Shown: one piece after another, positions 1,248-26,397 of the stretch
How the letters are laid out: every line of letters starts with the position of its first letter
Position numbering within the stretch: position 1 is the first letter of the stretch
Assembly: GCA_024275415.1 (NCBI GenBank)
Contig: JAJRZD010000053.1
Span: 28,920-60,919 of the forward strand
Source: an archaeon
Lineage (GTDB): Archaea; Asgardarchaeota; Thorarchaeia; Thorarchaeales; Thorarchaeaceae
Length of the DNA: 32,000 bases
Direction: 5' to 3'
The notes under the pieces: model-generated
Told to the model about the DNA's origin: nothing
The model's database searches: none
Seen by the model: only the letters and a program-made list of their open reading frames with translations
Made by a program: the position numbers and the translations under genes

Positions 1248-1808
1248 TTATTTGACCCAGTGTTTCTCCTTGCTAAGTTGTTCTAGGTTTGCAGCGTGGA
1301 CGATGTTTCCTATCTCCATGAACATGTCATTTACATTCGTTCCTGTTTTCGCGCTTGCCAGGATGAAGGGTGCCTTCAGGGCCTTTGCGTATTCTTTCGC
1401 TCCGAAGAAATGGGTTTCACCAGGAACAAGATCCGTCTTGTTCCCGACAATGATGTATGGGATGTTCTCGCCAAGGAATCCCATAGCTTCCTTAATCCAT
1501 TTTGAAATAGATGCGAAGGTTTCCTGTCTTGTCACATCAAACATGATAATGAGCCCTTTGGCTCCCTCATAGAAGCTCGCACGAAGCTGTCTGAAGACAT
1601 CCTGCCCTGCAAGATCCCAGATCATCAACTTGACGTGTGTGTTGTCATTCCCCGCGTTCACTATTCGGGAGTAATGCTGCACTCCTACCGTGCTCTGGTA
1701 TTCTTTGCGGAAATACCCTTCTGACCATCTAAGGATGGTACTGGTTTTGCCTACAGCTGAATCTCCTATGATACATATTTTATAGACGTAGGCAGGCCTA
1801 ATTGTCAC
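1248..1808 (-). CDS. Rab-like small GTPase (Ras superfamily, Asgard eukaryotic signature type)
   Basis: G1 GDSAVGKT, G2 STVG, G3 WDLAGQ, G4 NKTD, G5 SAK; GTG start; 186 aa. Confidence 0.92.
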   Translation of the reverse strand: MTIRPAYVYKICIIGDSAVGKTSTILRWSEGYFRKEYQSTVGVQHYSRIVNAGNDNTHVKLMIWDLAGQDVFRQLRASFYEGAKGLIIMFDVTRQETFASISKWIKEAMGFLGENIPYIIVGNKTDLVPGETHFFGAKEYAKALKAPFILASAKTGTNVNDMFMEIGNIVHAANLEQLSKEKHWVK

Positions 1809-2135: not shown

Positions 2136-3905
2136 TTGAGCAGGCGGAAATTTACTATTCTACCACTTGTGATATTACTCAGTGTCGCAGCATTTCTTAA
2201 TATACCCCAGACTGCTGGTACGTCGACTGTTCCTGTTGATAGCTTGACTTTCGAGGTCATGTCTAGTGATTCTACTCGTATGGATGCGTTGATTAACGGC
2301 GATATCGATTTCATTTATGACGGTGTAGACCCGTCCTATGTGGACAGTGATTCAACGAATCTGCAAATTGTGGAGGAAACACAGAACGGATATGGTTATC
2401 TTTCTATAAACACCAATCGGTGGCCTTTGAACTATACCGCCATTCGAGTCGCAATTGCATTGGCTACAAATAAGACTGAGATTGCAGGCTATTTTGAGAA
2501 TGCATTTCCAATCGATGCAGCACTTCCACCTGCCAACCCCTTCAGCGCAGAGGGCACATTCGATACGACGTATTATGATGCGGATTTAGATGGAGCACGG
2601 GCGGTGTTGGACGAGGCTGGTTTCATTGATATTGATTCTGACGGATATAGAGAAGCCCCTAATAGCACTGCTTTTGCTGTTTCCATAGTTTCTGTAGATT
2701 TTGGACCCGGAACGACAATTCTTGAGCATATCCACAGTCAGTTGGATGCGATTGGTATCTCTTCGACAATCGAGTATTTCAGTATAGGTGAGTACATTTC
2801 TCAGTTGACGGTATACCATGACTATGGAATCTCATTTCTCAGTGCGAGTTTTCCCATTCTAGATCCCACTCCACTCTATGACTTTACAAGTACGTCCTAC
2901 GAATGGCTTCTCTTGTCAGGTTTGTTTTCAAATTCTACTTATGACACAACAGCGAATATGTTGAAGACAGAAATGGACAAGGCCAAAATTGAACAGTATT
3001 CATATGATCTTCAAGAAATTCTATTTGAGCAGTGTCCCATAATTCCGGTATATAGCAATCGCCTCGTCTATGCTTACAGCCAGCACCTTACTGGTGTGAC
3101 TTCTAATGCACTGGACGGAATATCGTCCCGTTGGAGTATTATGAGACTTCATGTCAATGATTCAGCTTACTCTGCTGTACGAGTTGCGATATCTACAGAT
3201 ATCTTTTCTTTCAATCCAATCGAATCCACAACGGGACCTAGTGGAGTTGTCAACAACCTAATCTGGGATAGACTTCTCAGAATCGACGACAATTTTGAGA
3301 TGCATGCAGGCCTTGCGACCAATTGGACCCTTCAGACGTATCCTGAAGATAGCACTCTTGAATCCCACGAGCTAGCTATTGTATTCACCATCAGAAAAGG
3401 TATTGTCTGGACAGATGGTTCGTCCGTGACTACTGAAGATGTAGCGGCATCATTCAATTTTATAGCAAAGAGTTGGCATACCACCTCACTGAACTTGAAT
3501 GACCTTAGCAGGGCTCTTGCGATATCAGACACAAAGGTCAAAGTCATATTCAATAGCACGAGTTTCTTCAATCTCTGGTATGCAGGTACTGCTCCTATTC
3601 TTCCAAATGCTACATTAGCCCAGCACAATCCTGACAAGATTAATCTCTGGGATCCAGTCCCTGGCACCTCTGGGGATTTAGTATCCTCTGGCCCCTATAT
3701 GGTTTCACAATATGAGGCTGGCTCCCGCATCATGCTAGAACGAAACCCTGATTATTATCTTGACCCAGACGAACTTTTTGACACCACAACATCCACCAAC
3801 ACCACAACTCCATTGCCTGATATTGATATACTCCTTATGGGCTTTGCTGGAGGTGCAATAATTGCTGTTATGGCCGTTGTAGTCATCATCTTTAAGCGTA
3901 GGTGA
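2136..3905 (+). CDS. ABC transporter substrate-binding protein, family 5 (DppA/OppA-like), circularly permuted, with C-terminal membrane anchor
   Basis: Signal peptide; SBP5 motifs ALINGDID, INTNRWPLNYTAIRVAI, LDEAG, PIIPVY, FNP, GLATNW, RKGIVWTDGSSVTTEDV, GPY..LERNPDYY; Thr-rich linker, TM helix and KRR tail. Confidence 0.85.
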   Translation: MSRRKFTILPLVILLSVAAFLNIPQTAGTSTVPVDSLTFEVMSSDSTRMDALINGDIDFIYDGVDPSYVDSDSTNLQIVEETQNGYGYLSINTNRWPLNYTAIRVAIALATNKTEIAGYFENAFPIDAALPPANPFSAEGTFDTTYYDADLDGARAVLDEAGFIDIDSDGYREAPNSTAFAVSIVSVDFGPGTTILEHIHSQLDAIGISSTIEYFSIGEYISQLTVYHDYGISFLSASFPILDPTPLYDFTSTSYEWLLLSGLFSNSTYDTTANMLKTEMDKAKIEQYSYDLQEILFEQCPIIPVYSNRLVYAYSQHLTGVTSNALDGISSRWSIMRLHVNDSAYSAVRVAISTDIFSFNPIESTTGPSGVVNNLIWDRLLRIDDNFEMHAGLATNWTLQTYPEDSTLESHELAIVFTIRKGIVWTDGSSVTTEDVAASFNFIAKSWHTTSLNLNDLSRALAISDTKVKVIFNSTSFFNLWYAGTAPILPNATLAQHNPDKINLWDPVPGTSGDLVSSGPYMVSQYEAGSRIMLERNPDYYLDPDELFDTTTSTNTTTPLPDIDILLMGFAGGAIIAVMAVVVIIFKRR

Positions 3906-4527
3906 TACCACCAATATAGATCAACATACTTTTGTCCATATCTCCAGTGGCGACAAACATGGCAACAAACATCTTGGCAAGTATAGTAGAAATAGTAGAA
4001 CCGCCCAACACTCACTATGAGTGCTATCAGTAGTGGCTTGACTACGTTGGTGGTAACACCGTTTATTGTAAGTTGTACAACCCTGGACACCAAGAGTGTT
4101 GTACTCCCAGGGAACGGCATTGGGTGGACTCCGTGAGGTTCTACGTGTGTCATGGATGACCTCACTGAGTATGTCTCGTCGAAACTATACAAGCACCCAC
4201 AACAAGATGTCCATAATCGTCTAGGTTTTGTACAGCTGTTGTCAACCCATGGAGATATGCATGTGTATGACGATCATCCATCTCTAGACATTCTCATGTA
4301 CTGGAACTAAGAAATAGCCGTCGCTGCTGTGGTACAGGAGGCTTCAAGATCATGCAGGGTGAGCCACAGTTGATTCTTAGACAGTTAATTTCAAACATGC
4401 CCGAACTTGTCAGCAATCCGTTCTAACACTAGTATACTCTCTCTGGCTGAGCGATTACCTAAGAAAAAAGTATGCCCTCTTTCATTCCATTCTGGAAGTA
4501 GAGGGCGGTATCCAATTCTAGTAGATA

Positions 4528-5208
4528 TTATTTCTTACGGCATAGAATGGCTATTACAACGAGCAGGACAACAGCACCGCCTGCAACCAATAGTAGGTTA
4601 TCCTGAACAAAGTCGAGTATCCCACTTGCATCGCTGGGCAAACTGGGCAAGTTCTGCCGAACCAGACTGAGGCTTCCGTTAACAGTTTCGACATTCCAAT
4701 GAGCAAGCATTCCATCCTGCTTCAGAAAATCGATTCTGATATCAAATGTATCCGAGCTAAGGGCAAAGCCAAAGTTGTTCAGCTCGACTCCCCAATAACC
4801 TCCGCTATCGAAAACAGTACCGTTGTAAATCGAACCTTCGTAGAGTTCTTGGAGTAGAGTGAAGTTCCCTATTGGTACTGCAAAATGGTCAATTGCAACA
4901 AAATAGAGTATGAACATCAAAGCGCTCCAGCCAAGAGAGGTTCCATTAGCCCAAGTGACATCTATAGAAGCAGCATCAAGATCACTCCACGAGTTCATGA
5001 TATTCGGGATAACTGGTGTGTCTGTGACCTCGAAATACATGATTTCGGTTCGTGTATCATTACCGTCTACTGAAGTGAAATCGAAGTTGAATTGATCATT
5101 ATCCTCGATTCCCCATTCAAGCCCCTGAAGGGTGGCTGCGGAAACATTGGAAACTAGTAATAGTCCCGCTACAAAAACAGCAAACAAAGCAATTTTGGCG
5201 TGTTTCAT
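4528..5208 (-). CDS. Hypothetical secreted, C-terminally anchored surface glycoprotein
   Basis: 226 aa; N-terminal signal peptide; sequons NDT, NGT, NFT, NGT, NGS; C-terminal hydrophobic helix then CRKK; AGGAG RBS. Confidence 0.75.
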   Translation of the reverse strand: MKHAKIALFAVFVAGLLLVSNVSAATLQGLEWGIEDNDQFNFDFTSVDGNDTRTEIMYFEVTDTPVIPNIMNSWSDLDAASIDVTWANGTSLGWSALMFILYFVAIDHFAVPIGNFTLLQELYEGSIYNGTVFDSGGYWGVELNNFGFALSSDTFDIRIDFLKQDGMLAHWNVETVNGSLSLVRQNLPSLPSDASGILDFVQDNLLLVAGGAVVLLVVIAILCRKK

Positions 5209-5404: not shown

Positions 5405-7381
5405 CTACTTCACACTGAACTCAAGGAATGGCTCGCCCAGAGCAATCCTCTCTATGAGCGAGTTCTTCTTTGCAGATTTTACGATTTTCTCAAAGTATTT
5501 CTTGAGGCGTCGCTCATCGACATACTCGGGTTCCTTGATTCCTATGCTCTCGATGACCTTGTTGAGCAGGGATTCGAAATCGTAAACAAGATAGTCTACC
5601 TCGACTGTCTTTCCTCGTTTCTTCTTTGGCAGCTTCTCCTTGCGAGCAAGTCCCTGTTTCAACGCTTCTCGTGTTTCCTTTAGATACATGCCTCTGGCTC
5701 TTTCGTATTCCAACTGGTTCTTCCTAACCAGCTCTTTTAGGAGTTGAAGTCCAAATGTGGTACGTGCAATTTTCTCGATTCTTGCGACAAAGCCATTCAT
5801 GATATCCTCATAGGACACCATCTCGGCCTGACCCTTAGTGCTGAACACCTTGTCACTATCTTTGGCCTTGGCGTACTTTGCCTTCTTCTCCCTGAGCTCC
5901 TTTTCTCGTTGCTTGCGCAGCTCCTCTTCTCTTTTCAGACGCTCTGCTTCTTGGCGTTTGCGTTCAGCTTCAAGCTTTTTAGCTTCAGCAATTTTCTTCT
6001 TTTCTTCCTGTTTTTTCTTTCTTTCAGCTTCCCTCTTCTTCTCTTCGGCGAGTCGTTCTTGTTCCAGCTTCTTCAAGATTTTTTGTTGATCCTTGACGAG
6101 CTTTGCCATATGATCCTTTATGTCCTTCTCAGTGAGAGTGATATGTTTAGTGAGAAGCCATCTTACTCCAATATTATTCACTTTCGGTTTCAGGTCTGCA
6201 GAGGAGAACACAAAGCAGGCAGTCTGTTGTCCCGGAAGCTTCGATATGATCTCCTCGGATTCTTTCTCGCCAGCAATTGGCTCAAGGATGCGTTCTAACA
6301 CCTTGAGTGATTGCTCGCTGCTAATCCTACCTGCAGAAATCGTGTTGAACTGCTCGAATGCCTTGTAGTCAATGTCCTTTGGGCTTTGTGTGGCAATCAA
6401 GCACTCTACTCCATACTTTCTCGCCTGTCGGAATAAGAGAAGGAACGTTTCTTTCGGGCCTGGTGAGCGCATCCCTGCCGGGATGAACGGAGCAGCCTCA
6501 TCCTGGAAGAGAAGCAATCGGGGTCTTTCTGTAAAACCCTGCCTGAGCATCCACGAGTATAGCTGGTTGAGGACGATTGCGATAAAGAAGTGTTTTTCCT
6601 CCTCGCTGCGTAACGTCTTCAGGAAAATGATGTTGACCGGAGTCTTACCATTGACAGGTTTCACCATCTCGTCGAAATCAATCTGTCCTTCTTCTTTGAA
6701 GAGTAGCTGAGCAGAGCCAACCGTAAGTGTTCGTATTCTTGTGGCAAGTGTCTGTCTCTCAGAGAGTTTCATGTACGGTTCAAGATCCACACCAATCTCT
6801 TCCTGTGGTGCGGTGAGCATGTCGGCTAGCTCCTTGAGGTTATTCACATCCTTGTTATTCTCCCAGATCGAGCGCATCAGCTCGTAGATGACCGCGAAAG
6901 ATTTGCTCTCCCACGAACTTGAGAGACCTCCAACTTTGGTTAGAACCTTAGTCAGTGTGCGTGCCGAGTTGTCTAGCAATCGGATGACATCATCTTGGTC
7001 TGCTTTTGGATCTGGCAATTTCAAAGGATTGATAGAGATTGACAATCCCTTGCTACTGGCAGGAGTATAGACTTTGACAATCACTTTGTCCATGTATTTC
7101 TTTAATCTATCCGGAGGGACTCCTTTCTCCTTGAGCTGCTTTGGGTCGCCAGGAATCATCAATGATGCGATGTCTCCTTGTGGGTCGAATGCAAGAATAG
7201 GGATGCCCTGCAATGCAGCCTCTTCAAGAATGACCTTGCTTAAGACCGTCTTACCTGAGCCTGTCGAACCAAATATCCCACCGTGCCGCCTTAATAGATC
7301 AACACTGATCTCAAACTTCTTGTTTGTTCTTTTTCCTGTGTCATCCAGATAATGTCCAAGCCAAAGTTTAGAGTCTGCCAT
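5405..7381 (-). CDS. HerA/FtsK-superfamily ATPase (DUF87/DUF853-like) with a long C-terminal coiled coil
   Basis: Walker A GSTGSGKT, FDPQGD, Walker B LLFQDEA, Arg-finger segment RQARKYG, ATQSP; K/E/R-rich coiled coil. Start moved from 7441 to ATG 7381 (GGAGA RBS). Confidence 0.85.
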   Translation of the reverse strand: MADSKLWLGHYLDDTGKRTNKKFEISVDLLRRHGGIFGSTGSGKTVLSKVILEEAALQGIPILAFDPQGDIASLMIPGDPKQLKEKGVPPDRLKKYMDKVIVKVYTPASSKGLSISINPLKLPDPKADQDDVIRLLDNSARTLTKVLTKVGGLSSSWESKSFAVIYELMRSIWENNKDVNNLKELADMLTAPQEEIGVDLEPYMKLSERQTLATRIRTLTVGSAQLLFKEEGQIDFDEMVKPVNGKTPVNIIFLKTLRSEEEKHFFIAIVLNQLYSWMLRQGFTERPRLLLFQDEAAPFIPAGMRSPGPKETFLLLFRQARKYGVECLIATQSPKDIDYKAFEQFNTISAGRISSEQSLKVLERILEPIAGEKESEEIISKLPGQQTACFVFSSADLKPKVNNIGVRWLLTKHITLTEKDIKDHMAKLVKDQQKILKKLEQERLAEEKKREAERKKKQEEKKKIAEAKKLEAERKRQEAERLKREEELRKQREKELREKKAKYAKAKDSDKVFSTKGQAEMVSYEDIMNGFVARIEKIARTTFGLQLLKELVRKNQLEYERARGMYLKETREALKQGLARKEKLPKKKRGKTVEVDYLVYDFESLLNKVIESIGIKEPEYVDERRLKKYFEKIVKSAKKNSLIERIALGEPFLEFSVK

Positions 7382-7484
7382 CTTATTATCTTCTCCACTG
7401 GGATAAACCACTTTGTGTTTAAGGAGATTCCTACGAATCAAATTACATATGCATATTTATTACATTTACTTAGGAGTACTTCAT

Positions 7485-7535: not shown

Positions 7536-8168
7536 TTATGCACCTACAGGTTCGTACCTGCGTCCTAGGTATGCGACTATCGCAAAGACGAGGACGACTG
7601 CAAATATGCCAAGAACTAATGATGCCCATCCGTAGGATGCTGTAACCTCCCAGATCCAGTCTAGGAATACCTTGATACCGGCCATGATGGCACCAAGTAG
7701 TAGAGCTACTAGCATGAAACGAGAAGTCATCTCCTTCACTTGTCCCTGCTCGCTGCCTTCAGTGATTTCGGCGCTGAAGAAAATGAAGACGAAAAGGAAC
7801 ACATATGCAATGACTATCATTGCAGCCACATTGAAAAGTCGTTGTTGTAGCACCGCGTCATTTGGATAGAGAATCCCAAGGACAAGTATTGTGGTGAGCG
7901 CCTGAAGATAAACAAACATATTGCTCACGAGCTTGTCTTCGGGATGCACGAACCCGGTCAGTTCGGTGAAAGTCGTTATCGAGGACATCAGCACTACCAG
8001 TCCAAGGATAGCCGCGCCAGCCACCCATAAGTAGAATGGGTAGTTCCAGGCGGTTTCTCCTGCTCCGAGGTCTAGCTGATCAAGAAGAGCCCAAAGTCCA
8101 CCGGCTCCCGCAATAACGGCGATTCCAATACCTGCAAGAACATTGCTTACTGTTGTCAATCTAACCAT
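7536..8168 (-). CDS. Hypothetical integral membrane protein (about 6 TM)
   Basis: 210 aa; repeated hydrophobic segments separated by short charged loops; GGAGA RBS. Confidence 0.75.
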   Translation of the reverse strand: MVRLTTVSNVLAGIGIAVIAGAGGLWALLDQLDLGAGETAWNYPFYLWVAGAAILGLVVLMSSITTFTELTGFVHPEDKLVSNMFVYLQALTTILVLGILYPNDAVLQQRLFNVAAMIVIAYVFLFVFIFFSAEITEGSEQGQVKEMTSRFMLVALLLGAIMAGIKVFLDWIWEVTASYGWASLVLGIFAVVLVFAIVAYLGRRYEPVGA

Positions 8169-11697: not shown

Positions 11698-11752
11698 AAT
11701 CCACGACATCTTTAAATCAATGAACTGTAGGTGCGGTATCGAGTTGAGGAAA

Positions 11753-12514
11753 ATGAATTGGTGTGCAAAAATAATCAATGGAGCATCTGACGAGTTCGTT
11801 CATGCAAAGCTCCTGAAATACGGGATTGGCGAGCATCCAGGTCCTCGTGTTGTCCTGAAGTTCAGTAAGGCTAGGGTGACATTCAAAGCGGATCTTGACA
11901 TGGAGAAACCCCTTATCCGTGCGTATCTGGAAGGTGCTTCTGACGGTGTCCACAAGATTAAGGGAACTATTGTTTCTTACGAGGATCGAGAAGCTGAAAC
12001 ATCGACTTTCGTAATGCCTATCACATGGAAAGCTTCCAAGGGCAAGGGCGCTACCACGTATAAAGCAAAACTCAATGAGGTCGCTCCCCTTAGTGACATC
12101 AAAGAACTCATGAAGCTTGACAGTCCGACGACATTTTTCCTCCTCTCAATAAGTCCCAACACTACAGGCACACCTTGGAAGATTACAACGAAGACATCAT
12201 TTCCAAAAGGTGGTCCTAGTGGGGAAGAAGATGAAAAGGATCCGACCTTTTGTAAGGGGGCTTTTGCAAACATCCCCGAGATTCTTGGTTTCCTGTCCAC
12301 GGAACTTTATCCTGATATAGCAGATAAGGTAACGCCCAAGACAAAGAATATCTACATACGCCAGACCATTTTCATTGATGATATCCAGATTCCAGATGAC
12401 GATTCGCTGTCATTTAAAGAAAAGAGGAAGCTCGCCAAGAAGAAGGGCATACTGTTGAGAAGGATTTCCGTCGATGGTGTAGACTATGAGAACGAGTATT
12501 CGTTTCTTGCGTAG
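11753..12514 (+). CDS. Conserved archaeal hypothetical protein
   Basis: Long clean ORF; N-terminal HAKLLKYGIG and basic C-terminal KKKGILLRRI. Start moved from 11720 to 11753 (TTTAAAT 11711-11717, GAGGA RBS). Confidence 0.72.
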   Translation: MNWCAKIINGASDEFVHAKLLKYGIGEHPGPRVVLKFSKARVTFKADLDMEKPLIRAYLEGASDGVHKIKGTIVSYEDREAETSTFVMPITWKASKGKGATTYKAKLNEVAPLSDIKELMKLDSPTTFFLLSISPNTTGTPWKITTKTSFPKGGPSGEEDEKDPTFCKGAFANIPEILGFLSTELYPDIADKVTPKTKNIYIRQTIFIDDIQIPDDDSLSFKEKRKLAKKKGILLRRISVDGVDYENEYSFLA

Positions 12515-12591: not shown

Positions 12592-12813
12592 ATGCTCCAG
12601 TTCGAGTTCGCTCTTGACATAACCATTGAGATGCTGTTCCCCTTCTTTGCTCTCTTCTTCCTAGCATTCGGTCTTTTTGCCATAGGATGGTTAGTAGTTC
12701 ATGTGGAGCATGCCCGCCACTTTTCAAGGTTCAAAGTGGCATCTGCGATTATTCTGGGCTCATTATTCATCGGTTTTGGGATACATTTCATTCTCTTGAC
12801 CTTTGGTATATGA
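12592..12813 (+). CDS. Small 2-TM membrane protein with HVEHARH motif
   Basis: Two hydrophobic helices; TTTAAAT 12551-12557 and GAGGTTGA RBS support ATG 12592 rather than 12568. Confidence 0.7.
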   Translation: MLQFEFALDITIEMLFPFFALFFLAFGLFAIGWLVVHVEHARHFSRFKVASAIILGSLFIGFGIHFILLTFGI

Positions 12814-14098
12814 ATCCGCTGAGATACATCCGCACATTATTGATATTCTCTACTCCAAAGTATCGTACATCCATAATTACACCGATACCAGATACTTTGT
12901 GATAGAGAGGAACATAACTGTGTTACTAGATCCCGATCTTGAGAAAATAGCTGTACAGAGCAGGCAGCGCCTTATCCAAGAGTTCGCAGAGAAACATGCG
13001 ACACTGGGAGAGCGTGCCCGTCGCATTCCCGTTGAGGCAGCAAGGAAGATTGCGGAGAAATACAGTTGTCCCCTCCAGATTGCGACCGTGGCATACATTC
13101 TAGATATGGATGGTATAACGAGCATACGAACAGCAGTCAAGCTTTTGTCGCACGAGCTGTTCCGCAGGGAGTCCATCGGAGAAGGCGTACCAAACTTGCC
13201 TGGGAATGTTCAGGAGTTTGCTGTGGAGGAAGGTCGTTGGATATACTACATATACGGAAGGTTCTCACGGGAGTTCGAGGTGAAGATTCGAGAACTGGCG
13301 AACCTTGAGAGCGTCGTTGATGAGGACCACCCTCCTGTTGAGAAAGCAATCTCGCTGATGAATGCACGGATTAAGGTAGCTGAAGCATTTCTACTCCCTG
13401 TTGTCCAGACATGGTTCAAGGATCACACAAGAGGGACAAGTGAGGAGCTGCTCCTGTTCTTGGGTCCTGCAATCACTGACTGGAATGAGACGACCTTGCG
13501 GGCCAAGCTTAACCGTATGAAGAGAAGGGCACAGGCGCTGTTCAGGAGGCTTGACGCAATCATCAGTTCTGCTTCCGATTCCCTGACCATGGATGAGTAT
13601 TCTAAAAGAATCAACAATCTCATCGATGAACTTGATAAGAACATCAACGATCTCAGTCACAAAGCAGTGGCTCACCTTATTCTCCACATTGCTCCACGTC
13701 CTACTGGAGCTAGGGGTGATCGCTCACGATACGTGCAGATTGGCACTGGATCCACGAGAGGCAACAAGGCAGAACCCGACATGGTTTCCCCCTTTGACTT
13801 TCTCGAACGAGATATTCGCCTTGCCAAACGTCGTTCAGGTGAGGAACGTGAGCAGTACTTGAAAGAACGTATCGCTCGCGTCATCAAGGTTCTCAAGTAT
13901 TCAGGAAACGATTCGGTTTCAGGAGCTATCCAGTGTTTACAAGAGATAACAGAACGCTTCAAGATTCAGGGCATTGACATGCCACGAAGTATCGAGAGTC
14001 TAAAAGGAGCCTTTGCAAATGTCCGCCCTGAAGAATCCGACACCACCGCTACTGAACAAGTCTACTCATTTGTCGAGGAATACATACTTTCGGCGTGA
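12803..14098 (+). CDS. Hypothetical, largely alpha-helical protein
   Basis: 431-aa ORF with no recognised motif; true start may be GTG 12920 (GAGAGG upstream). Confidence 0.75.
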   Translation: MVYESAEIHPHIIDILYSKVSYIHNYTDTRYFVIERNITVLLDPDLEKIAVQSRQRLIQEFAEKHATLGERARRIPVEAARKIAEKYSCPLQIATVAYILDMDGITSIRTAVKLLSHELFRRESIGEGVPNLPGNVQEFAVEEGRWIYYIYGRFSREFEVKIRELANLESVVDEDHPPVEKAISLMNARIKVAEAFLLPVVQTWFKDHTRGTSEELLLFLGPAITDWNETTLRAKLNRMKRRAQALFRRLDAIISSASDSLTMDEYSKRINNLIDELDKNINDLSHKAVAHLILHIAPRPTGARGDRSRYVQIGTGSTRGNKAEPDMVSPFDFLERDIRLAKRRSGEEREQYLKERIARVIKVLKYSGNDSVSGAIQCLQEITERFKIQGIDMPRSIESLKGAFANVRPEESDTTATEQVYSFVEEYILSA

Positions 14099-14877
14099 TG
14101 CAACCCATGATGAACCCAACTCCACTCTTTTGGCTCTTGGATATAGAAGCATACGACTATGATATCGGCGTACTCAAGAATGCGGACATGACTGGGAAAG
14201 CTCTTATCGCATCAAATCAACTGTGGTCCATTCTACGTGGTGATAAGGTATATTCGACGCTTATCGGTCCTGGCTACTTCAAGGGAGTTGCCGAGAGCGG
14301 CAATAGAAGAGTAGAGATCAACGAGTACTTGTCTGTACTCATGTTCGATCCGACTGCCCTTCGATACGATGAGCCCGTTCCGCTTGTTGATATCATCAAC
14401 CCCGAAGTGATAGACCCTCTAGGCACTTCAAAGGTAGAAGAGATCATGACTATCATCCGCGACATTGTCGTGGAAAAAGGCAATGTCCTTGCCGGTGACC
14501 AGATTGCACGTGTCAAAGGAAAGGCTGACATCCCTCGTTTGGTGCATTATACCGACTTGATGAAACGCATCAAGGTATCACATGTTTCAGGAGTACAACG
14601 TGCACGATTTCTCTTAGGTGGTACGAACCGTCCTCTATACGCCCCACTCATCGATTGGTTCAACAAACGTCGATACAACAATTTCCTGCGACCGAAGATC
14701 ATGGCACTGCCCTTTGGCAAGTTCGCCAGTTCATCTGATATCGAGGTACTGTCTGATTGGATGCTGGTCGAGAAGGCTGGGATGGGCGGCAGTGGGATTG
14801 ATGGCTTTCGCGAGGAATACGAGGTCGTCATGTCTCTCATTCACAAGAACTCGGACTCTTTCATATTCGATGTTTGA
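14095..14877 (+). CDS. Hypothetical protein
   Basis: 260-aa ORF; start overlaps the upstream stop (GTGATG), suggesting translational coupling; no recognised motif. Confidence 0.72.
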   Translation: MMQPMMNPTPLFWLLDIEAYDYDIGVLKNADMTGKALIASNQLWSILRGDKVYSTLIGPGYFKGVAESGNRRVEINEYLSVLMFDPTALRYDEPVPLVDIINPEVIDPLGTSKVEEIMTIIRDIVVEKGNVLAGDQIARVKGKADIPRLVHYTDLMKRIKVSHVSGVQRARFLLGGTNRPLYAPLIDWFNKRRYNNFLRPKIMALPFGKFASSSDIEVLSDWMLVEKAGMGGSGIDGFREEYEVVMSLIHKNSDSFIFDV

Positions 14878-14933: not shown

Positions 14934-17570
14934 GTGGAAATCGCAGATGCTGATGTTCAGAAGATTCTGACCAAACCGTATTCACTCGTATTGCGGGCTG
15001 GCAGGCAAGAGATGACCGCAAGGACTGAGGTCATGCAGGATGTGTTGCTTGACCGTCAGCGAGCAAAGCTATCGGGCATGATCGAGTTTGGAAGACGTTC
15101 GAACGGATTGCTCGAAATAAGGCGTTCGTGGTTCATAAAGTACAACAAACCAATATACTATCAGCCGAAAGAGTTCCATGAGATTCTTCGTAAGGCGAAG
15201 TTCATCATCATACCACGTAACCAGAAGCCCTCTTTCCACAAGGATATGATTGACATGTTGGCGAGGCTACAGGTTGCGAAACCCAAGACTGTCCCAGTAT
15301 GTGACCATTGCATCCGTGATAACCGATTGACTGTACTCACAAGAAAGAATGCAGTGAAGGTTTCAGAAACCCAAGTTCTTTGTGCTAGCTGTGCGAAGGC
15401 TGACCTGCGCACGGATCTGAAGAGCTTGGGCGTCAAGGTATCGAAAGGGATGCTGCATCATCTAGAAAACCAATTGATGAAGGTGAAGTCCGTTCCACAT
15501 CTGCTCGAGCTTGTCATGCCAGGGTTCGACCCGACAAGGAACCCTGACCTCACGTTGGTCGATACCCTATCAACTGGCATTGCTATGAAAGGTGTTAAGA
15601 TTGAAACGCTGGATATTCCAGAGAAGTTCAAGGCACTATTGCTTGAAGAAGGGCTTGAGAACCTATTGCCTGTGCAGGAGCTCGTAATAAAGGCCGGTCT
15701 GTTGAAGGGAGCGAGCCTGCTGGTTGTGTCGTCGACATCCTCTGGGAAAACGTTGATTGGAGAGATGGCAGGCGTTCCACGCGCTCTGGAGGGGCGGAAG
15801 ATGGTCTATCTTTCTCCGCTTGTCGCCTTGACGAATGAGAAGTACGAGCTCTTCCGCAAGCGGTACAGCAAGCTGGGGCTGCGGACAGGCATCAAGGTGG
15901 GGATGTCCCGTCTTGATGTGGGTGATGACGCAAAGCCAATAGTTGATACTGACATAGAGAAATCCGACATCATCTGTGCGACCTACGAGGCGCTGGATCT
16001 CATCTTCAGATCCGGCGAAACAAAGAAGCTTGGTGATGTAGGGGTCATAGTCGTGGACGAGATCCAGAACCTTGCTGATGAAGAACGAGGCCCTGAGCTG
16101 GATGGACTGCTTGCTAGGATGCGGTTCCACTATCCCTCGGCACAAGTCTTGGCACTTTCTGCGACAGTGGGTTCTCCAGAGAAGCTTGCAAAGGAACTCG
16201 GATTGGATCTGGTCAACTATACGGGCAGGCCTATTCCCCTAGAGCGCCATCTTGTGTTTGCTAGGAGTGATGAGGAGAAGCGACGGATTATCCGGCGTCT
16301 GGTAAAGGATGAATTCCACAAAAAGAGCAGTACAGGGCACAAGGGGCAGTCGATTATTTTCACGTTCTCACGACGGAGGGCACACGCTATCTCTGACTGG
16401 CTGAACGAACAGCATGTGTACAGCGCAGTCTATCACGGTGGCCTTTCTTATAGCAACAGACGACGGGTCGAACGGGCATATACGAAGCAGCGCTATGCAT
16501 GTGTAGTGACAACAGCAGCTCTTGGTGCGGGTGTCGATCTCCCTGCTTCTCAGGTCATTTTCGAGTCACTGGCCATGGGCGCAGACTGGATATCTACTGC
16601 TGAGTTCGAGCAGATGCTCGGGCGGGCGGGACGACTGGGGAAGCATGATAGGGGCCGTGCATTTTTGCTTGTACAACCAGAACGCAAGTATCATGGCGGT
16701 CAGGAGAAGACCGAAGACGAGGTCGCTTCGGATTTGCTTGCTGGAGTGGTTGAGGATGTGGAACCATTTGCTGATCTAGAACGTAGCGCGGAACAGGCTT
16801 TGGCAATGATATGCTCGACTAATCTGGTCGAGCTCAAGGCAGTGGCAAGAGCATACAACAGGATGCTTTCTATCTCAGTTCCGCCGTCCGACGCGCTGAA
16901 GCATCTGGTCAAGAAGCATATGATCAGGGTCAGGGAAGGCGGTGCTCATGTGACACCACTAGGGCGAGCCACTTCCGTTTCGTTTCTGACGCCGACAGAG
17001 GGACTGCGAGTGGTGAAGATGGCTGCGAATATAGATGTGCTAGATATCGCAATCACGTTGGAACCCTTTGAGAATGTATACCTATCGAACAAGCTACAGG
17101 GGGAGATTAATACCGCATTCAAGACACACATGCCTACTCGCCTTTTCTCGGGTGTCTTCACCGACCTCACTACCATCCGCAATCCACGAAGTGGTGCCGC
17201 ACGGTTGCCAAAATGGGTCTTTGAAGTGTTCTCTCTCTGGACTCGGGATTTCTTCAGCTGTGGGTGCAATCTGTTTCCAGAATGTGACCATGGGAAAATT
17301 GCCATGGGCCGATGGATAGTCATCCAACGCAAGAAAGGCTTGAACCCGTCGGGGATTGCACAGAAACTCCATCGTGATTATGAACTATGGGCATATCCTG
17401 GTGACATCTATTCATGGCTGGACGCGCTTATCCACAATCTCAAGGCAGTCCAACGTATCGCGATGGTGGAGGGCAAGACGGACTTGAATGAAACAATTGA
17501 GGATCAAATAACGAGGATTGAGAAACCTCTACAACGCACAGACAAGGACGATTCCGAGAAGAGCGGATGA
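14934..17570 (+). CDS. Archaea-specific SF2 DEAD/DEAH helicase (COG1202 / DUF5814-containing type)
   Basis: Q motif LLPVQ, I SSTSSGKT, Ia SPLVAL, II DEIQ, III SAT, V TTAALGAGVDLP, VI QMLGRAGR; N-terminal CDHC..CASC and C-terminal CGC..ECDH; GAGGT RBS before GTG. Confidence 0.9.
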   Translation: MEIADADVQKILTKPYSLVLRAGRQEMTARTEVMQDVLLDRQRAKLSGMIEFGRRSNGLLEIRRSWFIKYNKPIYYQPKEFHEILRKAKFIIIPRNQKPSFHKDMIDMLARLQVAKPKTVPVCDHCIRDNRLTVLTRKNAVKVSETQVLCASCAKADLRTDLKSLGVKVSKGMLHHLENQLMKVKSVPHLLELVMPGFDPTRNPDLTLVDTLSTGIAMKGVKIETLDIPEKFKALLLEEGLENLLPVQELVIKAGLLKGASLLVVSSTSSGKTLIGEMAGVPRALEGRKMVYLSPLVALTNEKYELFRKRYSKLGLRTGIKVGMSRLDVGDDAKPIVDTDIEKSDIICATYEALDLIFRSGETKKLGDVGVIVVDEIQNLADEERGPELDGLLARMRFHYPSAQVLALSATVGSPEKLAKELGLDLVNYTGRPIPLERHLVFARSDEEKRRIIRRLVKDEFHKKSSTGHKGQSIIFTFSRRRAHAISDWLNEQHVYSAVYHGGLSYSNRRRVERAYTKQRYACVVTTAALGAGVDLPASQVIFESLAMGADWISTAEFEQMLGRAGRLGKHDRGRAFLLVQPERKYHGGQEKTEDEVASDLLAGVVEDVEPFADLERSAEQALAMICSTNLVELKAVARAYNRMLSISVPPSDALKHLVKKHMIRVREGGAHVTPLGRATSVSFLTPTEGLRVVKMAANIDVLDIAITLEPFENVYLSNKLQGEINTAFKTHMPTRLFSGVFTDLTTIRNPRSGAARLPKWVFEVFSLWTRDFFSCGCNLFPECDHGKIAMGRWIVIQRKKGLNPSGIAQKLHRDYELWAYPGDIYSWLDALIHNLKAVQRIAMVEGKTDLNETIEDQITRIEKPLQRTDKDDSEKSG

Positions 17571-25143: not shown

Positions 25144-26397
25144 ATGCCACAGCAGAAACTGGAATCACAGAAGCCCTCTTCCATCGACGACTCACTGTGT
25201 TCCAGGTGTATGGGGCATCGCTCGCTCTGTGGTATAAAGCCATGCCCGCTACTGCTGAGGGCTCGGGCCCTTGTAGACATAGAGAGTGCTGTAAGAGGAC
25301 AAAGCCTCGAAGGTTCTTCTCCTCCTTCTATCTTTGTTGGCAATCAGGGATACCCAAAGGTCTTAGCGGGTCCCCTGATACCACCAGTCCGCGGTGAGAC
25401 CTCCCTGATGGAGCGACCTGATCTTTGGTTGGACAAGACCCTTGATGAGATTCTCTCGATTAGGTTCAATCTTGTCCGCACAAAGAAACGGATTCCTGTG
25501 GATGATGCAATGGATCCTTCGAGGATGCTACAGGAAACCCAGACCATGGCGCTTTCAGAGGTCCCTCTCGATTCAGAGGCGACATTGCTTAAACGTCCGA
25601 CCTTTACATCAGTCTTCACAGGAAGGACATTGCCAATAGGCCCATCTGCCCCCCTAGATGACTTTCATCTCGAAGCAAATCCAAAAGTCCCTCGTCCTGT
25701 GGACAAGGTTACCTCTGATATCGATCTCGATACGACCAAAGGAGTCATGAGTCTCTTTGAGAGTGGTATCCGTCAGGAGCACATGACTCGGCTCCTATCA
25801 GTCGGTCTGTTAGGTGTGCAAAAAAGGCGTAGGCTCGTACCGACATTGTGGAGCATCACTGCCGTCGATGATATCATCGGGAAGCAACTGCACAGGGAAG
25901 TCCTTCGATTGCCATGGCTCAACGATTATGAGGTGTATGTCGACCATGCGCTGGGCAATACGGTCATTCTGCTCTTCCTGCCAAGTGCATGGCAATTCGA
26001 GGCACTGGAATGCTGGCTTGGAAGTCTGAACCCTCCAATTATCACTGACCATGAACGCAACAAAGGGAGAAATAAGTATGCATCATCAGTTGCGGGTGCG
26101 TACTATGCAACTAGGCTACCAGCACTTGAACATCTTGTAACGAGGCAGCACAAACAAGCGGGTGTCATCGTGTTCATGGAGATCGACCCAGCACAGTGGG
26201 TTCCACTAGGTGTATGGCGATTTCGTGAGATAGCACATCGTGCCCTCAACAAGCCCACAAAAAGGTTCTCGACGCTTGATGAGGCAATTCTTGAGATTGA
26301 TTACTATCTACGGCATCCTGTGAAGAAGTACCTTGACGCAAGCACAATCTACAAGGAGTTCAATCATCAGACGCTCCTGACTGATTTCATCAATTAA
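25144..26397 (+). CDS. nreA: Nre family DNA repair protein (DUF650/DUF651)
   Basis: CSRC..LCGIKPCP, GSSPPSIFVG..GYPKV..GP, RRLVPTLWSITAVDD, AGAYYATRL, PLGVW; C-terminal PIP-like QTLLTDF. Confidence 0.9.
   Translation: MPQQKLESQKPSSIDDSLCSRCMGHRSLCGIKPCPLLLRARALVDIESAVRGQSLEGSSPPSIFVGNQGYPKVLAGPLIPPVRGETSLMERPDLWLDKTLDEILSIRFNLVRTKKRIPVDDAMDPSRMLQETQTMALSEVPLDSEATLLKRPTFTSVFTGRTLPIGPSAPLDDFHLEANPKVPRPVDKVTSDIDLDTTKGVMSLFESGIRQEHMTRLLSVGLLGVQKRRRLVPTLWSITAVDDIIGKQLHREVLRLPWLNDYEVYVDHALGNTVILLFLPSAWQFEALECWLGSLNPPIITDHERNKGRNKYASSVAGAYYATRLPALEHLVTRQHKQAGVIVFMEIDPAQWVPLGVWRFREIAHRALNKPTKRFSTLDEAILEIDYYLRHPVKKYLDASTIYKEFNHQTLLTDFIN

What the first reader, a model, noticed from the sequence alone, without database searches (positions are those of the whole stretch)
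2136..3905. Circularly permuted family-5 solute-binding protein
Seen: motifs that normally form the second half of DppA/OppA proteins (VDSLTFEV..ALINGDID, N..P..RVAIALA, YDADLDGARAVLDEAG, LQEILFEQCPIIPVY) come first, at about residues 35-320. The canonical N-terminal half (FNP..IWDRLL, GLATNW, FTIRKGIVWTDGSSVTTEDV, GPY..LERNPDYY) follows from about residue 345 (near nt 3170) and leads into the Thr linker and membrane anchor. Known: the canonical order is the reverse. Inference: a natural circular permutation that moves the tether to a different lobe. I do not know whether it has been described.
Basis: partly seen in the sequence, partly recalled or inferred. Interest (0 to 1): 0.72.

Follow-up and report, generated by a model that had tools for sequence, protein, structure and literature searches.

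The report
Circularly permuted peptide-type binding protein
This Asgard (Thorarchaeota-type) archaeal gene encodes a membrane-tethered nutrient-binding protein of the OppA/DppA class whose first ~200 residues have moved behind its last ~300. The rewiring is real, conserved in hundreds of relatives, and I found no description of it for this class.

Summary
ORF 2136-3905 (+, 589 aa) matches Pfam SBP_bac_5 in two pieces in swapped order: residues 31-254 match profile 145-363, and residues 389-541 match profile 2-141. A profile of the permuted family aligns in one unbroken stretch to a doubled E. coli DppA (235-535 followed by 1-233). Single DppA gives two swapped pieces. AlphaFold models are confident (pLDDT 93.6). 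The first part superposes on canonical residues ~183/210 to the C-terminus (Z 27). The second part superposes on canonical ~1-190/215 (Z 19.5).

It is not an artefact. At least 121 cluster representatives share the order. So do 70 of 76 genomes of the same family, two other Asgard families and Bathyarchaeota. This genome has five permuted and three canonical paralogues.

One paralogue sits in a complete Opp-type ABC operon. The window copy and most others are orphans. Some are fused to subtilase proteases on long stalks.

The claim that the tether moves to another lobe is not supported, because the new ends stay in lobe 1.

A precedent exists only for sugar-binding cluster B proteins (TpMglB-2). 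This scan has already flagged permuted family-5 proteins on other DNA, including Thorarchaeota. I class it as a new variant of a known kind.

The parts
2136..3905 (+). Whole ORF, 589 aa with a TTG start: circularly permuted family-5 (cluster C) solute-binding protein
   Evidence: The public gene call P0002 starts 11 codons later. The longer start gives a normal charged n-region, as in the homologues.
2136..2219 (+). Predicted Sec-type signal peptide (residues 1-28: RRK n-region, hydrophobic core, ...PQTAG|T)
   Evidence: Read from the translation. The equivalent N-terminal hydrophobic segment is present in the 4-way alignment and in 86 of 121 family representatives. The cleavage site is inferred.
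2226..3125 (+). Segment A (residues ~31-330), equal to the canonical C-terminal ~300 residues: a strand and helix of domain I, all of lobe 2 (domain III), then the return strands of domain I
   Evidence: Pfam profile 145-363. The family HMM matches DppA 235-524. The AlphaFold model superposes on DppA 1dpe 203-507 and NikA 183-499, Z 26-27.
3126..3173 (+). New connector (residues ~331-346) joining the old C-terminus to the old N-terminus
   Evidence: It lies between the two matched segments. It is ordered in the model, with block pLDDT 84-96 and a short helix. Canonical N- and C-termini are stated to lie close together in domain I (PMC10924461).
3174..3758 (+). Segment B (residues 347-541), equal to the canonical N-terminal ~200 residues: first strand of domain I, domain II, and the GPY...NPDYY strands
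   Evidence: Pfam profile 2-141. The family HMM matches DppA 30-233. A separate AlphaFold model (pLDDT 91.5) superposes on NikZ 2-186 (Z 19.5, rmsd 2.2 A over 182 residues), OppA 1-215 and NikA 4-189.
3759..3827 (+). Acidic and Thr-rich linker (residues 542-564, includes TTTSTNTTT)
   Evidence: Read from the translation. It is low-confidence and unstructured in the model. Homologues have Ser/Thr-rich stretches of variable length here.
3828..3902 (+). C-terminal transmembrane anchor (residues 565-586) followed by KRR
   Evidence: Read from the translation. It is conserved in the 4-way alignment. A C-terminal TM-like segment is present in 93 of 121 family representatives.

Best explanation
The gene encodes an intact, folded cluster C (family 5, OppA/DppA/NikA-type) substrate-binding protein whose chain is circularly permuted. 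The old ends, which lie side by side in domain I, are joined by a ~16-residue connector. The chain is opened instead in a surface loop of domain I, between the '...NPxYW' strand and the following strand (between residues 233 and 235 of the E. coli DppA precursor). The order of parts is: signal peptide, canonical residues ~235 to the end, connector, canonical residues ~30-233, Thr-rich linker, transmembrane helix. The cut lies inside lobe 1, so both hinge crossovers and the bilobed clamp are kept.

Shown: the permutation; its conservation as one clade; confident models of the whole protein and of each half; one paralogue inside a complete Opp-type ABC operon.

Inferred: the protein is exported by Sec, stays tethered to the cell surface by its C-terminal helix, binds an oligomeric ligand (most likely a peptide, possibly an oligosaccharide) between its lobes, and hands it to an Opp-type translocator encoded elsewhere in the genome. 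On this reading it is one of several accessory receptors for that importer.

I put about 0.95 on the genuine, functional permuted fold and about 0.55 on delivery to an ABC importer for this orphan copy.
For: Order of parts:
- Pfam, PDB and NCBIfam matches are all swapped.
- Doubled-sequence test with the HMM of 104 permuted proteins: one domain, hmm 22-547, against doubled canonical paralogue C77 positions 238-778.
- Same test on doubled E. coli DppA: one domain, hmm 22-545, against positions 235-768. Single copies give two swapped domains.

Fold:
- The full model has pLDDT 93.6 and pTM 0.92.
- Model residues 1-318 superpose on the canonical C-terminal ~300 residues, Z 26-27.
- The second-half model superposes on the canonical N-terminal ~190-215 residues, Z 17-19.5, rmsd 2.1-2.7 A.
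- For single chains the two ranges tile the chain: 5u4o 229-521 and 42-227; NikA 183-499 and 4-189.

Not an artefact:
- Homologues at 52, 41 and 31% identity are collinear over the full length.
- 121 of 152 top representatives have a full-length collinear domain.
- 70 of 76 genomes of the same family carry it, with 5-9 full-length copies each in five checked genomes.
- The 104 permuted sequences form one clade (support 0.996) against 11 re-ordered canonical sequences.

Transport link:
- Paralogue C42:5067-6983 lies directly downstream of OppC-like, OppB-like and OppC-like permease genes. OppD/OppF-type ATPase genes are divergent next door.
- Permuted genes adjoin Opp-type permease genes in the same way in four of five related genomes and in locus L024.

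Peptide link: giant paralogues fuse the permuted domain to a subtilase (Peptidase_S8) domain.

Precedent: a permuted cluster B binding protein, TpMglB-2, still binds glucose and still closes on binding (PMC4990184).
Against: - The window copy has no transporter genes nearby. Its neighbours are a HAD hydrolase, a Ras-family GTPase, a HerA-like ATPase and an MFS transporter.
- Only 1 of 5 permuted genes in this genome, 4 of 30 in five related genomes and 1 of 23 related loci lie beside permease genes.
- The DppA residues that clamp the peptide ends (R383, D436; PMC12136057) are not conserved. R383 falls in an insert most members lack. The D436 column is variable and is Pro in this protein. That alignment is at under 20% identity and may be off.
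- The best PDB sequence matches are oligosaccharide binders (TM1223, Vibrio chitooligosaccharide-binding protein), so the ligand class is open.
- I could not run a non-sequential superposition of the whole model. That the two halves pack as in canonical proteins rests on AlphaFold's confidence only.
- No ligand, expression or transport data exist.
Confidence: 0.75

Rival explanations
1. The permuted domain of this orphan copy no longer serves a transporter. It would act as a surface-displayed binding head, for adhesion, sensing, or holding peptides or proteins near surface proteases. The permutation would have been kept because it frees a C-terminus that can carry stalks and enzymes.
For: - Most permuted genes are orphans.
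- In 119 of 121 representatives the domain starts within the first 70 residues. It is followed by a tail with a median of 122 residues; 19 tails exceed 300 residues and 6 exceed 1000.
- Paralogues carry Ig-like/PKD/fn3 arrays (C24, 989 aa) or a subtilase plus Ig-like/PKD domains (C110, 2578 aa; also P0020 and P0028).
- A head separated from its membrane anchor by some 2000 residues is poorly placed to dock on a permease.
- The DppA-type ligand clamps are not conserved.
Against: - This copy has only a ~23-residue linker between the domain and the anchor, the geometry of ordinary tethered archaeal binding proteins.
- A close paralogue family sits in Opp-type operons in most genomes checked.
- Several orphan binding proteins sharing a small set of permeases is an established arrangement, for example five binding proteins in Borrelia Opp (abstract of PMC5736914).
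- One canonical paralogue (C10) is also an orphan.
Confidence: 0.2
2. The swapped order is an assembly chimera, or a decaying remnant of two tandem family-5 genes, and not a functional single fold.
For: Tandem family-5 genes are common in these genomes. The source is a metagenome-assembled genome with 127 contigs and 4.5% contamination.
Against: - The same order and the same junction occur in independent assemblies from many genomes, down to 24% identity, with intact frames.
- Five paralogues in this genome each match the family HMM in one stretch.
- The junction is ordered in a confident model.
- No leftover duplicated segment was found in the C24 paralogue.
Confidence: 0.02
3. It is not a true permutation of one ancestral gene. 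Instead it is a mosaic: the C-terminal part of one family-5 gene fused to the N-terminal part of an unrelated family-5 gene. A similar origin was considered for TpMglB-2.
For: It cannot be formally excluded. A fusion of two tandem paralogues followed by trimming is the usual route to a permutation and would look the same (PMC4990184 discussion).
Against: Both halves score comparably against the same canonical proteins. The two segments tile single canonical chains with no gap or overlap at the cut: DppA 233|235, C77 237|238, P0179 213|217. No intermediate with 1.5 copies was seen among the hits examined.
Confidence: 0.03

Closest known systems
Canonical cluster C / Pfam PF00496 (SBP_bac_5) binding proteins of Opp/Dpp/Nik-type ABC importers: E. 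coli DppA (1dpe, 8z1z), OppA (1b52, 3tcf), NikA (1uiu), C. jejuni NikZ (4oeu), B. subtilis AppA (1xoc), T. maritima TM1223 (4pft)
   Same: - Sequence family: 162 bits to PF00496.
- All structural elements are present. Each half superposes at Z 27 and Z 19.5.
- Family motifs are kept (W-x-DG, GPY...NPxY).
- A paralogue sits in an operon with OppB/OppC-type permeases and with OppD/OppF-type ATPases that carry the oligo_HPY domain.
   Different: - Chain order: canonical residues ~235 to the end come first and ~30-233 come last.
- A new connector joins the old ends, and the new ends lie in a domain I loop.
- The DppA peptide-end clamps R383 and D436 are not conserved.
- Most genes are orphans and many carry long C-terminal stalks or a protease.
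TpMglB-2 (Tp0684) of Treponema pallidum, 'Type Ic / Cluster Bc' circularly permuted glucose-binding proteins (Brautigam et al. 2016, PMC4990184)
   Same: - It is a natural circular permutation of an ABC-importer binding protein.
- It forms a conserved family rather than a one-off.
- Members are mostly membrane-tethered.
- The protein still binds its ligand and still closes on binding.
   Different: - It belongs to another structural class (Type I / cluster B, sugar-binding, ~400 aa).
- There the first three strands of the N-lobe moved to the C-terminus, which required an extra (fourth) hinge crossover.
- Here the cut lies within lobe 1, so no extra crossover is implied (inference).
Engineered circular permutants of periplasmic binding proteins used for biosensors
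   Same: They show that the bilobed clamp tolerates new termini (papers listed).
   Different: They are laboratory constructs, not natural families. None of the listed papers concerns family 5.

Membership tests
Pfam PF00496 SBP_bac_5 / cluster C substrate-binding proteins | Significant sequence match to the family profile | tested here: met
   162.4 bits against a cut-off of 32.4. Each half alone is also above the cut-off, at 94.9 and 72.3 bits.
Pfam PF00496 SBP_bac_5 / cluster C substrate-binding proteins | Canonical chain topology: one collinear match, N-terminal strand, then domain II, domain I, lobe 2, domain I | tested here: not met
   There are two stretches in swapped order. Sequential structural alignments cover only about 300 of 531 residues, TM by query 0.40-0.47. 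Collinearity is restored only against doubled canonical sequences.
Pfam PF00496 SBP_bac_5 / cluster C substrate-binding proteins | Three-domain, two-lobe fold with the extra domain II | tested here: inconclusive
   Both halves, modelled with high confidence, superpose on the matching parts of solved cluster C proteins (Z 27 and Z 19.5). The relative packing of the halves could not be checked, because no non-sequential aligner or model coordinates were available.
Pfam PF00496 SBP_bac_5 / cluster C substrate-binding proteins | Genetic association with OppB/OppC-type permeases and OppD/OppF-type ATPases | tested here: not met
   This holds for the window gene, which has no ABC genes within the 32 kb window. 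The feature is met for paralogue C42 and its counterparts beside Opp-type permeases in other genomes.
Pfam PF00496 SBP_bac_5 / cluster C substrate-binding proteins | Ligand binding in the inter-lobe cleft with hinge closure | not testable with these tools
   This needs purified protein (ITC/DSF, SAXS or a crystal structure).
DppA-type dipeptide binders | Arg and Asp clamps for the peptide carboxyl and amino ends (DppA R383, D436; PMC12136057) | tested here: not met
   R383 aligns to an insert absent in 95 of 104 members. The D436 column is variable (S, P, G, D, N, Y) and is Pro240 here. The alignment is at under 20% identity, so this is a weak test.
'Cluster Bc' permuted binding proteins (TpMglB-2 type) | Type I / cluster B sugar-binding fold homologous to MglB | tested here: not met
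   All sequence and structure matches are to cluster C / PF00496 proteins. It is analogous in principle only.

The most novel reading that the evidence does not exclude
The permutation created a family-5 binding domain whose C-terminus points away from the working face. The domain could then be used as a modular N-terminal 'head' on surface proteins of Asgard and other archaea. It is placed on stalks from about 20 to more than 2000 residues long and is fused to subtilases, which would couple extracellular proteolysis to peptide capture in a single polypeptide. On this reading the orphan copies are a diversified receptor repertoire, not ordinary operon-encoded transporter subunits.
Probability: 0.3. 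Interest if true: 0.7.

Novelty: new variant of a known kind. Interest (0 to 1): 0.55.

Why it matters
Substrate-binding proteins are a textbook scaffold for studying fold evolution and for building biosensors, and their classification assumes fixed strand orders. A large natural family of cluster C proteins with a different chain order matters for four reasons.

- It shows that the ~500-residue, three-domain clamp tolerates re-threading in nature, not only in the laboratory.
- It explains why these abundant Asgard surface proteins draw only partial, swapped matches to existing family models. Public names for family members range from 'hypothetical protein' to generic 'ABC transporter substrate-binding protein' and 'DppE'.
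- It gives a natural test of whether the placement of the tether affects how a binding protein docks on its transporter.
- It points to an unusual binding-domain–protease fusion that may shape how peptide-fermenting Asgard archaea feed.

Practically, Pfam and NCBIfam lack a model for this order, so domain-order-aware annotation would be needed.

Tried and rejected
- Complex prediction of the permuted domain with the C42 OppB-like permease: no verdict (score 0.03, mark 0.32). This is not evidence either way.
- Public sequencing runs holding the gene: none was listed, and no RNA holder was listed.
- Second word-index homologue search with the 104-sequence alignment: swamped by candidates, only 12 hits. 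It did yield the closest canonical-order relatives (P0179 and others).
- Relic of a duplication in paralogue C24: Pfam's second stretch runs to profile position 185, but the tail after NPDYF is an Ig-like module with no similarity to the N-terminal segment. Rejected.
- Conserved synteny of the window copy with its 52%-identical homologue L017: none of the flanking genes is shared.
- C-terminal sorting-signal models (PGF-CTERM type) in NCBIfam: no hit for residues 540-589.
- Literature: eight full-text searches gave no paper on a natural permutation in family 5 / cluster C. They returned engineered permutants and the cluster B case TpMglB-2. The library lacks most subscription journals, so a description may exist elsewhere.
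- Model coordinates are not exposed to scripts, so CE-CP or non-sequential US-align could not be run.
- The look-up of earlier scan findings by sequence found no look-alike window.
Full report
**The object.** Window 2136-3905 (+) is an open frame of 589 codons starting at TTG.
- The product begins with a typical Sec-type signal peptide: an RRK n-region, a hydrophobic core, and ...PQTAG|T.
- It ends with an acidic, Thr-rich stretch (residues 542-564), a 22-residue hydrophobic helix (565-586) and KRR.
- Two antisense ORFs over its 3' part (3332-3667 and 3755-4192, minus strand) have no support and are probably shadows.

**Check of the observation.**
- Pfam SBP_bac_5 (PF00496) matches at 162 bits in two stretches in swapped order. 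Residues 31-254 match profile 145-363. Residues 389-541 match profile 2-141. Each half alone is significant: E 6.9e-27 and 5.3e-20.
- Solved family-5 proteins show the same swap. For TM1223, query 89-313 matches chain 261-498 and query 415-540 matches chain 68-189. For B. subtilis OppA, query 346-547 matches chain 20-223.
- All NCBIfam Opp/Dpp/Nik/Gsi/Sap models also match in swapped order, and none reaches its cut-off.

**Is it a true circular permutation?** I used the classical doubled-sequence test.
- An HMM built from 104 permuted proteins (alignment A2) gives two swapped domains against the canonical paralogue on contig C77 of the same genome: hmm 356-547 on residues 40-237, and hmm 22-328 on residues 238-532.
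- Against C77 written twice it gives one continuous domain: hmm 22-547 on positions 238-778, which is residues 238-541 followed by 1-237.
- E. coli K-12 DppA behaves the same. The single copy gives hmm 351-545 on residues 30-233 and hmm 22-326 on 235-524. The doubled copy gives one domain, hmm 22-545 on positions 235-768.
- The two segments tile the canonical chain without gap or overlap. The cut lies in the loop between '...FDGYWG' and 'TKPQIDTLVF' of DppA.
- Other canonical-order proteins give the same cut: P0179 213|217, P0184 218|223, P0006 221|227.

**Structure.**
- AlphaFold2 with the 104-sequence alignment gives a confident model of residues 26-556: pLDDT 93.6, pTM 0.92. The junction region is ordered.
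- Sequential searches of the PDB align only about 300 of the 531 residues, with TM by query 0.40-0.47.
- VIA-align places model residues 1-318 on the C-terminal part of solved cluster C proteins at Z 26-27: DppA 1dpe 203-507, NikA 183-499, 5u4o 229-521.
- A separate model of residues 338-556 (pLDDT 91.5) superposes on the N-terminal part of the same proteins: NikZ 2-186 (Z 19.5, rmsd 2.2 A over 182 residues), NikA 4-189, OppA 1-215, 5u4o 42-227.
- At the level of each half, the structure test agrees with the sequence test.
- I could not run a non-sequential superposition of the whole model. That the halves pack as in canonical proteins rests on AlphaFold's confidence and is marked as inferred.

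**Where the new ends are.**
[quoted passage not shown] It defines lobe 1 as residues 1-286 plus 540-579, and the hinge as 282-287 and 540-542 (PMC10924461). This proximity is the geometric precondition for joining the old ends with a short connector, here about residues 331-346.
- The new C-terminus (residue 541) aligns to about residue 245 of S. meliloti YejA and to residue 233 of the DppA precursor. Both are upstream of the first lobe crossover.
- Both new ends therefore lie in lobe 1, both hinge crossovers are kept, and the tether still leaves from lobe 1, though from a different loop.
- A canonical paralogue (C10, 691 aa) also has a C-terminal anchor. C-terminal tethering is therefore not a consequence of the permutation.

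**Not an artefact, and a large family.**
- Homologues at 52, 41 and 31% identity align over the full length, with the same signal peptide and anchor.
- A profile search of 1.84 billion representatives lists at least 150 proteins at 245-987 bits. Of 152 examined, 121 carry a full-length collinear permuted domain. In 119 of these the domain starts within the first 70 residues, and 93 have a C-terminal TM-like segment. The tail after the domain has a median of 122 residues and exceeds 1000 in six.
- Named records are mostly Candidatus Thorarchaeota. Others are Hermodarchaeota, 'Promethearchaeota' and a Bathyarchaeota cluster.
- Among 300 other sampled genomes of the phylum, the profile hits 70 of 76 genomes of the window's family at E<=1e-30. 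It also hits 18 of 19 genomes of family f12 and 10 of 21 of f22. In the four genomes I re-checked (one of f12, two of f22, one of f13) the matches are full-length and collinear.
- Several other families had no match in the genomes searched, for example 0 of 68 and 0 of 28.
- A fold search of the ESM Atlas gives full-length sequential matches to a bacterial cluster (mostly Synergistota; TM 0.85 over 507 residues) and to a Bathyarchaeota cluster (TM 0.75). The bacterial lead was not checked by sequence.
- The 104 permuted sequences form one clade (support 0.996) against 11 canonical sequences re-ordered in silico. This is consistent with one origin, but the canonical sampling is small.

**Genomic context and function.**
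- The window's genome (3.5 Mb, 127 contigs) holds five permuted genes (C32, which is this one, plus C42, C110, C24 and C119) and three canonical genes (C77, C21, C10).
- The C42 copy lies directly downstream of OppC-like, OppB-like and OppC-like permease genes. OppD/OppF-type ATPase genes with the oligo_HPY domain are divergent next to them.
- Permuted genes adjoin Opp-type permease genes in the same way in four of five related genomes and in locus L024.
- The permuted form therefore does serve an Opp-type importer.
- Most copies are orphans: 4 of 5 here, 26 of 30 in five related genomes, and 22 of 23 related loci.
- The window copy lies between a HAD hydrolase, a Ras-family GTPase, an unassigned ORF and a HerA-like ATPase.
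- Its short linker to the anchor fits an ordinary tethered receptor. I therefore read it as an accessory binding protein feeding a translocator encoded elsewhere (about 0.55). The alternative is a non-transport surface binding role (about 0.2 as a stand-alone rival).

**Ligand.**
- The giant paralogue C110 (2578 aa) and at least P0020 and P0028 combine the N-terminal permuted domain with a subtilase (Peptidase_S8) domain. C110 also has Ig-like/PKD domains and a C-terminal anchor. Five representatives share the S8-like region. This points to peptides as the ligand class for at least part of the family.
- On the other side, the DppA clamps for the peptide ends, R383 and D436 (PMC12136057), are not conserved. 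The best PDB sequence matches are oligosaccharide binders.
- The ligand of this copy therefore remains open.

**Comparison with what is known.**
- The protein belongs by homology to cluster C / PF00496, but it fails the family's defining chain topology.
- A natural permutation of a binding protein has been described for cluster B. T. pallidum TpMglB-2 is the founder of 'Cluster Bc'. It still binds glucose and still closes, and its authors wondered whether tethering favoured the new topology (PMC4990184).
- I found no description for cluster C in eight full-text searches. The library is incomplete.
- Public records name family members 'ABC transporter substrate-binding protein', 'putative dipeptide-binding protein DppE' or 'hypothetical protein'.

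**Earlier notes of this scan.**
- The scan has flagged permuted family-5 proteins before on other DNA. These include a Thorarchaeota tandem array (e1-5236730), a Hodarchaeales gene (e1-5416285), and bacterial groups that, by their descriptions, have other cut points (e1-4609871, e1-5242088, e1-4401199).
- One note led me to the cluster B paper, which I then read myself.
- My phylum survey qualifies the earlier statement that the form is standard across Asgard archaea. It is near-universal in some families and was not found in the sampled genomes of others.

**Verdict.** This is a real, conserved, probably functional circular permutant of a cluster C binding protein, and a new variant of a known kind. 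It is of moderate to good interest for fold evolution, transporter mechanics and Asgard cell-surface biology. The function of this particular orphan copy and the selective reason for the permutation remain inferred.

Noticed in passing
own genome G000, contig C110:14794-22530 (-), = L014:2798-10531 (outside the window): A 2578-aa surface protein. Order of parts: signal peptide, permuted family-5 binding domain (residues 23-561), Peptidase_S8 (subtilase) domain with a large insert (742-1296), Ig-like/PKD domains, C-terminal TM anchor. Representatives P0015, P0016, P0020, P0028 and P0017 share the S8-like region. It is a binding-domain–protease fusion that could couple proteolysis to peptide capture.
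   Followed up: partly
own genome G000, contig C42:7076-14589 (= L013): An Opp-type operon with three permease genes in the order OppC-like (533 aa), OppB-like (349 aa), OppC-like (526 aa). The OppC-like proteins carry an unassigned insert of about 270 residues between the OppC_N helix and the BPD_transp_1 core. The same order appears in related genomes. The insert may be an extracellular docking domain.
   Followed up: no
window 1248-1808 (-): A Ras/Roc/Arf-type small GTPase (PF00071, 150 bits), upstream of the binding-protein gene on the opposite strand (divergent). It is a typical Asgard 'eukaryotic signature' gene, which fits the Thorarchaeota assignment of the relatives.
   Followed up: no
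window 3332-3667 (-) and 3755-4192 (-): Antisense ORFs of 111 and 145 aa overlap the 3' part of the binding-protein gene. There is no evidence that they are genes; they are probably shadow frames.
   Followed up: no
window 14934-17570 (+), 25144-26397 (+), 5405-7441 (-): A DEAD-box helicase fused to DUF5814 (878 aa), an archaeal Nre_N/Nre_C protein, and a HerA/DUF87-like ATPase. Several neighbouring ORFs (4528-5208, 7536-8168, 11720-12514, 12803-14098, 14095-14877) have no Pfam match.
   Followed up: no
protein P0179 (599 aa, metagenomic; not in the window): A canonical-order family-5 protein that scores 283 bits against the permuted-family HMM (hmm 351-545 on residues 35-213, then hmm 24-327 on 217-524). 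It is far above the other canonical proteins tested, so it is a candidate close unpermuted relative. In my small tree, however, P0183 and not P0179 was the sister of the permuted clade.
   Followed up: partly
ESM Atlas cluster, 549 aa, 78 members, Bacteria (mostly Synergistota): A full-length sequential structural match to the permuted model (TM 0.85, 507 residues aligned). This suggests that the same chain order exists in bacteria. No sequence was available to verify the cut point.
   Followed up: no
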